From NCBI RefSeq assembly GCF_003334305.1, contig NZ_QOWS01000065.1: 896 nt of DNA. One strand, given 5' to 3'. The notes under the pieces are model-generated. The model had not been told where the DNA came from. It was given only the letters and a program-made list of their open reading frames with translations, and did not search any database. This document shows positions 1 to 896 of this stretch, in pieces. The DNA is from Escherichia coli. Lineage in GTDB: Bacteria > Pseudomonadota > Gammaproteobacteria > Enterobacterales > Enterobacteriaceae. Made by a program: the position numbers and the translations under genes. Numbering within the stretch: position 1 is the first letter of the stretch; every line of letters begins with the position of its first letter.

Positions 1-896
1 TTCGGGCGGACGCTGACTTTCCACCGGGCAGCTAAGGGTGACGTGGCGGGCGCGGTGACGGGGGTGACGGACGGCGCGGGCCGCCGTTTTCACCTGGCGC
101 TGACCACGCAGGCGCAGCGGGCGGAAGCCTTCCGTAAACAGCGCGCCACGTCTTTATCTTCCCCTGCCGGTCCCCGTTCTGCTTCCTCTTCTTCTGCTTT
201 CCCCGACACGCTGCCCGCCGGTACAGAATACGGTGCCGATAACGGTATCCGGCTGGAGGCGGTGTGGCTGACACACGACCCGGCATACCCGGATGAACAG
301 CCGACTGCGCCGCTGGCGCGCTACACGTACACGGCCAGCGGAGAACTGCGGGCGGTGTATGACCGCAGCGGAACGCAGGTGCGCGGGTTTACTTATGATG
401 CGGAGCACGCCGGGCGGATGGTGGCGCACCATTATGCGGGGAGGCCGGAGAGCTGCTACCGGTATGATGATACCGGTCGGGTGACGGAGCAGGTCAACCC
501 GGAGGGGCTGGACTACCGCTTTGAGTACGGAGAGAGCCGGGTAATCATCACGGACAGCCTGAACCGGCGGGAGGTGCTGTACACGGAAGGCGAGGGTGGC
601 CTGAAGCGGGTGGTGAAGAAGGAACATGCGGACGGGAGCATTACCCGCAGCGAGTATGATGAGGCGGGGAGGCTGAAGGCACAGACGGATGCGGCGGGGC
701 GGCGGACGGAGTACAGCCTGCATATGGCGTCGGGTGCGGTGACGGCGGTGACGGGGCCGGACGGCAGGACGGTGCGGTATGGCTATAACAGCCAGCGGCA
801 GGTGACGTCAGTGACGTACCCGGACGGGCTTCGCAGCAGCCGGGAGTATGATGAGAAGGGAAGGCTGACGGCGGAGACCTCGCGCAGCGGTGAGAC
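1..896 (+). CDS. Rhs-family YD-repeat protein, internal fragment of the conserved core (5' and 3' ends both outside the window)
   Basis: Seen in sequence: frame 1 is open across all 298 complete codons (1-894) with no stop. Translation begins FGRTLTFHRAAKGDVAGAVTGVTDGAGRRFHLALTTQAQRAEAF and ends YPDGLRSSREYDEKGRLTAETSRSGE. It contains repeated YD-repeat units (RYTYTASGELRAVYD, GFTYDAEHAGRMVAH, YRYDDTGRVTEQ, SEYDEAGRLKAQTD, VRYGYNSQRQVTSVT, REYDEKGRLTAET). Codons strongly favour G/C, especially G, at the third position (acg, gcg, cgg, ctg, gtg, gag). Established knowledge: these motifs and the conserved blocks DSLNRREVL, GLKRVVKKE and AQTDAAGRRTEY are characteristic of enterobacterial Rhs core proteins. 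No database search was run; the paralog or subfamily cannot be assigned from memory, so no gene symbol is given. Confidence 0.93.
148..207 (+). repeat. Low-complexity Ser/Pro-rich segment (TSLSSPAGPRSASSSSAFPD) encoded by a pyrimidine-rich tract, including an in-frame (tct)3 run at 187-195
   Basis: Seen in sequence: nt 151-205 are almost entirely C/T on the + strand (tctttatcttcccctgccggtccccgttctgcttcctcttcttctgctttcccc), in sharp contrast to the G-rich codons on either side. In frame 1 this gives a serine/proline-rich stretch with four consecutive Ser codons (tcc tct tct tct). Confidence 0.6.
454..495 (+). repeat. Canonical YD-repeat unit (CYRYDDTGRVTEQV)
   Basis: Frame 1 codons 152-165 match the Y-R-Y-D-x-x-G-R-(V/L) core of the YD-repeat consensus almost perfectly. 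Confidence 0.8.
646..687 (+). repeat. Canonical YD-repeat unit (RSEYDEAGRLKAQT)
   Basis: Frame 1 codons 216-229, E-Y-D-x-x-G-R-L-x-x-x-T-D motif. Its nucleotide sequence is an imperfect direct repeat of 838-879. Confidence 0.8.
838..879 (+). repeat. Canonical YD-repeat unit (SREYDEKGRLTAET)
   Basis: Frame 1 codons 280-293, E-Y-D-x-x-G-R-L motif. Shares gagtatgatgag...aggctga with 652-676. Confidence 0.8.

What the first reader, a model, noticed from the sequence alone, without database searches (positions are those of the whole stretch)
1..896. Strong G/C (mostly G) third-position bias, which may be atypical for the host
The coding frame is dominated by NNG/NNC codons (acg, gcg, cgg, ctg, gtg, gag, ggc), making the window visibly GC-rich apart from the 148-207 pyrimidine tract. 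It is established that Rhs cores in E. coli are markedly more GC-rich than the genome, which has been taken as evidence of horizontal origin. If this window is from an enterobacterium of about 50% GC, the same argument applies, but I cannot see the host genome from here.
Basis: partly seen in the sequence, partly recalled or inferred. Interest (0 to 1): 0.3.

Follow-up and report, generated by a model that had tools for sequence, protein, structure and literature searches.

The report
GC-rich Rhs core in E. coli
The window is part of a well-known E. coli toxin-shell gene (an RhsH-type Rhs core); its G-rich codon usage really is foreign to E. coli, but this has been textbook knowledge since the 1990s.

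Summary
Observation confirmed. Frame +1 is open across all 896 nt and encodes YD/RHS repeats. The window is 99.8% identical (2 synonymous differences) to chromosomal "RHS element core protein" genes of E. coli, specifically the RhsH-type core lying in tandem with RhsE between yncH and pptA.

- **Composition:** window GC 66.1%, GC3 77.2%, G3 49.7%, C3 27.5%. A 46,000-codon sample of a carrier E. coli genome gives GC 53%, GC3 58.7%, G3 30.4%, C3 28.2%. None of 364 host windows of equal size reaches the window's GC, GC3 or G3.
- **The excess is all G:** at four-fold sites G is 61% and C 18%, against 37% and 28% in the host.
- **Predicted GC drop:** it exists and is exact. The GC3 change point is codon 1238, right after DPIGL (0.76 to 0.26). 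The GC-rich block starts at the ATG.
- **Not intrinsic to Rhs cores:** homologues elsewhere match their hosts, and one has 36% GC.
- **Subfamilies:** they differ at 39% of synonymous third positions and remain GC-rich there. Recent changes run GC→AT 52:19.

This fits the published view of a core that evolved in a GC-rich background and later entered E. coli. The only nuance is that the G-over-C excess is specific to the RhsH lineage. Already known; low interest.

The parts
1..896 (+). Internal segment (frame +1, codons 219-516 of a 1420-aa protein) of an RhsH-type Rhs element core ORF. It is GC-rich (66%), with GC3 77% and G3 50%.
   Evidence: Open frame. 99.8% nt and 100% aa identity to annotated 'RHS element core protein' genes of E. 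coli. The full-length homologue scores 2648 bits against NCBIfam RHS_core, whose cut-off is 2000. Composition.
328..891 (+). Five RHS/YD repeat matches (window aa 110-147, 155-185, 203-234, 243-276, 267-297), forming the first strands of the beta-cocoon shell.
   Evidence: Pfam PF05593 hits with E from 5e-9 to 1e-3. The same repeats appear in the longer N-terminal scan, which also finds DUF6531 upstream of the window. Homology to solved Rhs cocoons Tse5 (8cp6) and RhsA (7q97).
148..207 (+). Pyrimidine tract encoding TSLSSPAGPRSASSSSAFPD, a Ser/Pro-rich low-complexity linker that varies by insertion and deletion. Its codon usage differs from the rest of the window.
   Evidence: 82% pyrimidine. 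All 8 Ser codons here are TCY, whereas 12 of 15 Ser codons elsewhere in the window are AGC. The segment is shorter in RhsC and Yokenella and absent (30-residue gap) in Trabulsiella homologues.
154..723 (-). Long antisense ORF (189 aa) in register with the sense codons. It is a mechanical by-product of the codon usage, not a gene.
   Evidence: ORF listed. In-register antisense stops can only arise from sense TTA, CTA or TCA codons, of which the window has 2. Relatives have 4-5 stops in this frame: Yokenella 4, RhsC and RhsE 5.
736..754 (+). Perfect 9-nt tandem duplication GCGGTGACG x2.1, encoding AVTAVT.
   Evidence: Tandem Repeats Finder.

Best explanation
The window is an internal piece of an RhsH-type (RhsG-H subfamily) Rhs core gene of E. 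coli. The gene encodes a YD-repeat beta-cocoon that encloses a C-terminal toxin, and it is delivered by the type VI secretion system.

Shown here:
- The sequence is strongly GC-rich, and specifically G-rich at third codon positions, relative to E. coli.
- The GC-rich block coincides exactly with the core ORF, from the ATG to the DPIGL cleavage motif.
- Low-GC DNA lies upstream, and the toxin tip and presumed immunity gene downstream are AT-rich.

Inferred: the composition is a historical signature. The core lineages evolved and split in a GC-rich genomic background and entered the Escherichia lineage later, as the Hill laboratory proposed. The gene has not yet drifted to host composition because that drift is slow, and because a weakly expressed accessory gene is under little selection for host codon usage. 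The extra G-over-C bias is a trait of the RhsH/Yokenella branch of the family.
For: Identity:
- 99.8% nt identity to E. coli RHS core genes.
- The locus is vgrG-RhsE(dsORF-e4)-...-RhsH(dsORF-h1) between yncH and pptA.
- The full-length homologue passes the NCBIfam RHS_core equivalog, 2648 bits against a cut-off of 2000.
- Pfam RHS repeats and DUF6531. Solved Rhs cocoon homologues.

Atypical composition:
- 0 of 364 host windows reach the window's GC, GC3 or G3.
- Four-fold sites are G 0.61 and C 0.18, against 0.37 and 0.28 in the host. CGG is 52% of Arg codons against 9% in the host.
- Rare codons are 13.1% of the window against 3.9% in the host.
- Boundaries are sharp: GC3 change point at codon 1238 right after DPIGL (0.762 to 0.264), and GC 0.25 to 0.67 at the ATG.

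Not intrinsic to the fold:
- Cores of the same architecture elsewhere match their neighbours. L021 has GC3 0.634 against 0.653, and L022 has 0.607 against 0.626.
- One core (L025) has GC 36% and GC3 0.25.
- Jackson 2009 reports the same trend.

Divergence in a GC-rich background:
- RhsH and RhsC in one genome differ at 335 of 851 comparable synonymous third positions.
- Both stay GC-rich at those sites (0.67 and 0.61), and 30% of the differences are G<->C.
- The E. coli and E. albertii orthologues differ at 13% of such sites, mostly by transitions, with only 9% G<->C.

Ongoing decay: polarised synonymous changes since the E. coli/E. albertii split are GC->AT 52 against AT->GC 19 with a Yokenella outgroup, and 29 against 9 with two outgroups.

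Literature: GC-rich core, AT-rich extension and the subfamilies rhsABCF, rhsDE and rhsGH are described in PMC2935791, citing Wang et al. 1998.
Against: - No donor lineage was found. Every close relative of the G3-rich branch that I recovered sits in an enteric genome whose flanks have about 50-55% GC (E. albertii, Yokenella).
- GC3 is as high in the E. albertii orthologue (0.778) as in E. coli (0.762), so amelioration since that split has been small.
- Jackson 2009 regards rhs as ancient and largely resident in Enterobacteriaceae.
- The polarisation test uses distant outgroups that differ at 39% of synonymous sites, plus parsimony, which tends to inflate GC->AT counts.
- G3 far above C3 is not what typical GC-rich proteobacterial genomes show (my own knowledge). 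A simple 'GC-rich donor' therefore does not by itself explain the G bias.
Confidence: 0.7

Rival explanations
1. The GC-rich, G3-rich composition is actively maintained inside E. coli. Candidate forces are GC-biased gene conversion among the multiple recombining Rhs cores, or selection, for example rare codons slowing translation so the large cocoon can fold.
For: All three core subfamilies in one genome keep GC3 at 0.72-0.77. The composition is unchanged between the E. coli and E. albertii orthologues. Rare codons are 3-fold enriched. Cores are known recombination substrates (PMC2935791).
Against: Polarised recent changes run net GC->AT, 52 against 19. The subfamilies disagree on G versus C at the same synonymous sites (99 G<->C differences), so there is no shared codon optimum. 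Gene conversion bias is strand-symmetric and cannot produce G3 far above C3 on the coding strand. Homologous cocoons work at GC 36% and at host-matched composition.
Confidence: 0.2
2. The composition is forced by the protein. The Gly/Arg/Ala/Thr/Tyr/Asp-rich YD repeats dictate GC-rich codons, so nothing about the gene's history needs to be invoked.
For: GC2 is high, 0.55 against 0.41 in the host. Gly, Arg, Thr and Tyr are enriched. The G3-C3 profile along the gene correlates between subfamilies (r 0.54-0.8), so amino-acid content shapes part of the local pattern.
Against: The bias is strongest at four-fold degenerate sites, where the protein imposes no constraint (G 0.61 against 0.37). Homologues of the same architecture have GC3 of 0.25, 0.61, 0.63 and 0.84 in different hosts.
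Confidence: 0.04
3. The composition is unremarkable because the host genome is equally GC-rich.
For: None found.
Against: The window is 99.8% identical to E. coli chromosomes. Flanking housekeeping genes and 196 kb of the same genome have 51.7% GC and GC3 0.59.
Confidence: 0.01
4. Third positions are shaped by an overlapping antisense gene, the 189-aa ORF at 154-723 on the minus strand.
For: The in-register antisense frame has only 2 stops in 298 codons.
Against: Stops in that frame arise only from sense TTA, CTA or TCA codons. Their scarcity follows automatically from A3 = 6%. The frame has more stops in relatives: Yokenella 4, RhsC 5 and RhsE 5.
Confidence: 0.01

Closest known systems
RhsH / RhsG-H subfamily of E. 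coli Rhs elements (Wang, Zhao & Hill 1998, J Bacteriol 180:4102; summarised in Jackson et al. 2009, PMC2935791)
   Same: Same gene. It is a GC-rich core ORF of about 3.7 kb ending at the conserved DPxGL region, followed by an AT-rich core extension and a small downstream ORF annotated dsORF-h1. It lies in tandem with RhsE, downstream of vgrG, between yncH and pptA. It shows about 71-78% nt identity to RhsC-type and RhsE-type cores.
   Different: Nothing substantive. The window differs from the best complete-genome copies by two synonymous bases, at 774 and 810.
Structurally solved T6SS Rhs effectors: P. aeruginosa Tse5 (8cp6), P. protegens RhsA (7q97), Salmonella bongori Rhs (8qjd)
   Same: YD-repeat cocoon, Rhs-associated core domain and C-terminal toxin. 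Sequence homology has E from 1e-121 to 1e-56.
   Different: They come from other hosts and carry different N-terminal loading domains and toxins. Their DNA composition was not examined here.
Compositionally atypical, horizontally acquired genes that ameliorate toward the host (Lawrence & Ochman concept; my own knowledge)
   Same: Sharp compositional boundaries, atypical codon usage, enrichment of rare codons, presence in only 42-48% of complete E. coli genomes, and a net GC->AT drift.
   Different: Most atypical E. coli islands are AT-rich, whereas this block is GC-rich. The atypical composition has persisted at least since the E. coli/E. albertii split.

Membership tests
RHS element core protein (NCBIfam NF041261, equivalog) | Whole-protein score above the curated cut-off of 2000 bits | tested here: met
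   2648.5 bits covering profile positions 1-1261. The protein scored was the intact L002 homologue, which is 100% aa-identical to the window over its 298 codons. The window alone cannot be scored this way.
RHS element core protein (NCBIfam NF041261, equivalog) | YD/RHS repeats within the segment | tested here: met
   Five Pfam PF05593 matches inside the window. TIGR01643 YD_repeat matches in the full protein.
RHS element core protein (NCBIfam NF041261, equivalog) | Rhs-associated core domain ending in DPxGL, followed by a variable toxin tip | tested here: met
   TIGR03696 at aa 1183-1260 and DPIGL at aa 1234-1238. The tip has an HEFAH motif and a weak Peptidase_M91 hit. All of this lies outside the window, in the full-length homologue.
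RHS element core protein (NCBIfam NF041261, equivalog) | GC-rich core joined to an AT-rich core extension | tested here: met
   GC3 is 0.762 before codon 1238 and 0.264 after it. The maximum-likelihood change point falls exactly after DPIGL.
RHS element core protein (NCBIfam NF041261, equivalog) | Link to VgrG and type VI secretion | tested here: inconclusive
   In E. coli, vgrG precedes the tandem RhsE, not this core directly. In E. albertii, the sequence directly upstream of the RhsH-type core matches the end of the E. coli vgrG. DUF6531 is present at the N-terminus. Secretion itself cannot be tested here.
RHS element core protein (NCBIfam NF041261, equivalog) | Autoproteolytic release and delivery of the toxin | not testable with these tools
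   This needs biochemistry and competition assays.
RhsG-H subfamily (Wang et al. 1998) | Core diverges by more than 20% from the RhsA-B-C-F and RhsD-E cores and lies in tandem with RhsE | tested here: met
   71-73% nt identity to RhsC-type cores and about 77% to RhsE. The genes lie in tandem, with a downstream ORF annotated dsORF-h1. The subfamily definition is taken from PMC2935791 and from my recollection of the 1998 paper, which the library does not hold.

The most novel reading that the evidence does not exclude
The synonymous-site bias is not simply 'GC-rich'. It is a coding-strand G excess, with G 61% and C 18% at four-fold sites, so C is below host level. It is confined to the RhsH/E. 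albertii/Yokenella branch. Sister subfamilies in the same genomes prefer C, and a distant homologue (L024) shows the opposite extreme, with C3 at 0.62-0.75. This could record a strand-specific mutational process, linked to transcription or replication, acting on these long genes. Alternatively it could reflect descent from an unsampled donor lineage with G3-dominated codon usage, rather than an ordinary GC-rich donor.
Probability: 0.1. Interest if true: 0.35.

Novelty: already known. Interest (0 to 1): 0.1.

Why it matters
It matters little beyond confirmation. The atypical GC content of E. coli Rhs cores and the AT-rich tips were the original grounds for calling Rhs elements composite and foreign, and this window is a clean example.

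The useful by-products are quantitative:
- The compositional boundary coincides to the codon with the DPxGL cleavage motif.
- Rhs cores in other hosts match host composition, so the E. coli case reflects history rather than structure.
- The G-over-C excess distinguishes the RhsH lineage from RhsC-type cores. It could serve as a cheap marker of subfamily or of mosaic recombination.

Tried and rejected
- **Chi sites and G-quadruplex motifs.** I tested these as a functional reason for G-richness. There are none in the window or in the 4.26-kb gene, against 51 Chi sites in 196 kb of host DNA; about 1 would be expected, so the absence is not significant.
- **Antisense overlapping gene.** Rejected as a by-product of codon usage.
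- **Structured RNA.** No Rfam match at E<=1 on either strand.
- **Search for a donor or wider host range.**
  - The genome-contig scan gave only 14 loci, all enteric or mis-binned gut MAG contigs.
  - The search for homologous proteins returned mostly E. coli, Shigella, Salmonella and Citrobacter fragments.
  - Three further look-ups (P0186, P0126, P0125) landed at loci with enterobacterial gene neighbourhoods; P0125 sits at the kdp/RhsC position seen in E. coli. They added no new kind of host.
  - No genome was found in which a G3-rich core matches its surroundings.
- **Synteny of the E. albertii orthologue with the E. coli locus.** This could not be established, because the contig ends 1.2 kb upstream of the gene.
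- **Wang et al. 1998 (PMC107404).** The paper is not held. Its content is cited through Jackson 2009 or marked as my recollection.

Full report
**What is in the window.** Frame +1 is open across all 896 bases, while the other five frames carry 2 to 16 stops. The 298-residue translation contains five Pfam RHS_repeat matches.

The DNA is 99.8% identical over its full length to chromosomal genes annotated "RHS element core protein" in many complete E. coli genomes. Matches occur in 2,623 of 5,426 genomes, and 2,284 of those genomes hold a match covering at least 80% of the window; best-match identity is mostly 90-99.8%. The two differences from the best hits, at 774 and 810, are third-position and synonymous.

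In strain 13KWH46 the gene lies between yncH and pptA. It sits second in a tandem: vgrG, an RHS core with dsORF-e4, IS debris, then this core followed by "RHS element protein dsORF-h1". Strain 1943 has an intact 1420-aa copy at L002 5347-9609, and the window corresponds to its codons 219-516.

That protein scores 2648 bits against the NCBIfam RHS_core equivalog, whose cut-off is 2000. It has DUF6531 at aa 49-126 followed by RHS repeats. An Rhs-associated core domain spans aa 1183-1260, with DPIGL at 1234-1238. The 182-residue tip carries an HEFAH motif and a weak Peptidase_M91 match. Solved homologues include the T6SS Rhs cocoons Tse5 (8cp6) and RhsA (7q97).

This is the RhsH element of the RhsG-H subfamily. 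The subfamilies are listed in PMC2935791, citing Wang et al. 1998. The tandem RhsE-RhsH arrangement is my recollection of that 1998 paper, which I could not open.

**The observation.** Window composition is GC 0.661, GC1 0.661, GC2 0.550 and GC3 0.772, with third-position G 0.497, C 0.275, T 0.164 and A 0.064.

As a host baseline I took four 50-kb pieces of strain 1943 and used 103 non-overlapping ORFs of at least 250 aa (46,027 codons). Their means are GC 0.530, GC3 0.587, G3 0.304 and C3 0.282, and the 196 kb overall has GC 0.517. None of 364 host windows of 298 codons reaches the window's GC, GC2, GC3 or G3, while its C3 is average.

The bias is clearest where the protein imposes no constraint:

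| Measure | Window | Host |
|---|---|---|
| Four-fold sites, G | 0.61 | 0.37 |
| Four-fold sites, C | 0.18 | 0.28 |
| A/G-ending two-fold codons ending in G | 82% | 39% |
| C/T-ending two-fold codons ending in C | 61% | 49% |
| CGG as share of Arg codons | 52% | 9% |
| ACG as share of Thr codons | 69% | 27% |
| GAG as share of Glu codons | 73% | 30% |

Codons that are rare in E. coli make up 13.1% of the window against 3.9% in the host. Only three host windows deviate more in synonymous usage, and all three are AT-rich ORFs.

**The predicted boundaries.** In the intact gene a maximum-likelihood single change point for GC3 falls at codon 1238. That is the residue after DPIGL. GC3 is 0.762 to the left and 0.264 to the right. 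Upstream, 100-nt GC jumps from 0.25 to 0.67 at the start codon. The GC-rich block is thus exactly the core ORF. It sits between low-GC upstream DNA and the AT-rich tip and downstream ORF.

**Is the composition intrinsic to Rhs cores?** It is not. Representatives of the family with the same architecture (DUF6531, YD shell, RHS core and tip; 38-48% identity over the window) were located on contigs and compared with their neighbours.

| Locus | Core GC3 | Neighbours' GC3 | Note |
|---|---|---|---|
| L021 | 0.634 | 0.653 | Matches neighbours |
| L022 | 0.607 | 0.626 | Genome with E. coli-like ppk-purNM-upp-uraA-hda synteny |
| L024 | 0.840 | 0.759 | Strong C bias: C3 0.62, G3 0.22 |
| L025 | 0.25 | no flanking genes | Core GC 36% |

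This agrees with Jackson et al., who note that rhs genes of one clade in different genomes have dissimilar composition. In L021 and L022 the tips are still AT-rich, with GC3 about 0.25. Amino-acid content does explain the raised GC2. It also explains part of the local G3-C3 pattern along the gene, where profiles correlate between subfamilies at r 0.54-0.8. It does not explain the four-fold-site bias.

**Which lineages share the G bias.** The table covers the window-equivalent region.

| Core | GC3 | G3 | C3 |
|---|---|---|---|
| RhsH, E. coli | 0.772 | 0.497 | 0.275 |
| RhsH-type, E. albertii (91% aa identity) | 0.765 | 0.486 | 0.279 |
| Yokenella (68% aa identity) | 0.754 | 0.505 | 0.249 |
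| RhsE, E. coli | 0.758 | 0.430 | 0.328 |
| RhsC, E. coli | 0.716 | 0.346 | 0.370 |
| Trabulsiella | about 0.70 | 0.29-0.31 | 0.40-0.41 |

All of these cores exceed their flanks, which have GC 0.49-0.55. The G-over-C excess, however, is specific to the RhsH/Yokenella branch.

**History.** RhsH and RhsC in the same genome differ at 335 of 851 comparable synonymous third positions (39%). At those sites both remain GC-rich (0.67 and 0.61), and 30% of the differences are G<->C transversions. The E. coli and E. albertii orthologues differ at 13% of such sites, mostly by transitions, with only 9% G<->C.

This reproduces the logic behind the published conclusion that the subfamilies diverged in a GC-rich background before reaching E. 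coli.

Synonymous changes since the E. coli/E. albertii split were polarised with outgroups. They run GC->AT 52 against AT->GC 19 with Yokenella, and 29 against 9 when two outgroups must agree. This suggests slow decay toward host composition. The caveat is that the outgroups are distant and parsimony favours this direction. The decay is small, since GC3 is 0.762 in E. coli and 0.778 in E. albertii.

**Rivals.**
- **Active maintenance by biased gene conversion or selection.** This cannot be excluded. It is disfavoured by the net GC->AT drift, by the G-versus-C disagreement between paralogues, and by working low-GC homologues.
- **Protein constraint.** Refuted by the four-fold-site data and by L025.
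- **Host-typical composition.** Refuted.
- **Antisense gene (minus strand 154-723).** Rejected. In-register antisense stops can only come from sense TTA, CTA or TCA codons, of which the window has two. The frame has 4-5 stops in Yokenella, RhsC and RhsE.
- **Chi sites, G4 motifs and Rfam families.** All absent.

**Verdict.** Everything essential was published by the Hill laboratory in the 1990s and revisited by Jackson et al. in 2009. The only mildly new detail is the lineage-specific G-over-C asymmetry. No donor was identified for it.

Noticed in passing
window 148-207: The pyrimidine tract encodes a Ser/Pro-rich low-complexity linker. It uses TCY for all 8 Ser codons, whereas 12 of 15 Ser codons elsewhere in the window are AGC. 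It sits at an indel hotspot: shorter in RhsC and Yokenella, and a 30-residue gap in Trabulsiella. It looks like a lineage-specific simple-sequence expansion in a loop.
   Followed up: partly
window 154-723 (-): A 189-aa antisense ORF lies in register with the sense codons. In the full gene of L001 an antisense ORF reaches 322 aa. It is a by-product of A3 = 6% and is not conserved in relatives.
   Followed up: yes
window 736-754: Perfect 9-nt tandem duplication GCGGTGACG x2.1, encoding AVTAVT. GGTGACG (Val-Thr) also recurs near the 5' end of the window.
   Followed up: no
L007, L009, L010, L012, L020: Contigs filed under MAGs of Akkermansia muciniphila, Collinsella sp. and an Oscillospiraceae bacterium carry Escherichia-type Rhs cores: four are 90-96% identical to the window protein, and L012 is RhsC-like (62%). 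These are almost certainly mis-binned E. coli contigs in gut metagenome bins.
   Followed up: no
L002 9061-9606 (tip) and 9621-10070: The RhsH tip has an HEFAH zinc-metallopeptidase motif and a weak Peptidase_M91 match (E=0.005). The downstream dsORF-h1 (149 aa), presumably the immunity protein, has no NCBIfam match.
   Followed up: partly
L024 10001-14200: A distant Rhs core (41% identity) in a ~63% GC genome shows the opposite extreme. C3 is 0.62 over the core and 0.75 over the window-equivalent region, with G3 0.22 and 0.11. Its GC3 (0.84) exceeds its neighbours' (0.76). Strong coding-strand G/C asymmetry in either direction may be a recurring trait of Rhs cores.
   Followed up: no
L025 521-4501: A full-architecture Rhs core with only 36% GC (GC3 0.25), on a short metagenomic contig. 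It shows the cocoon can be encoded at low GC.
   Followed up: partly
L001 11034-16502 and 19348-23609: In strain 13KWH46 both tandem Rhs cores are pseudogenes. RhsE is frameshifted with an internal stop and is followed by an IS3 insertion. RhsH is frameshifted near its 5' end. IS1, ISAs1 and IS4 remnants fill the locus.
   Followed up: no
hits H53, H54: In some E. coli genomes only window bases 579-896 match (99.4% identity), in a truncated Rhs core gene lying next to tssM. This suggests a recombinant or deleted core within a T6SS cluster.
   Followed up: no
L002 5347-9606, 60-codon blocks: G3 varies in blocks along the RhsH core. It is 0.5-0.68 at codons 150-240, 300-510, 750-810 and 990-1200, and about equal to C3 at codons 60-120, 540-720 and 840-960. 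This is only partly mirrored in RhsC. It could reflect amino-acid content or an old mosaic origin.
   Followed up: partly
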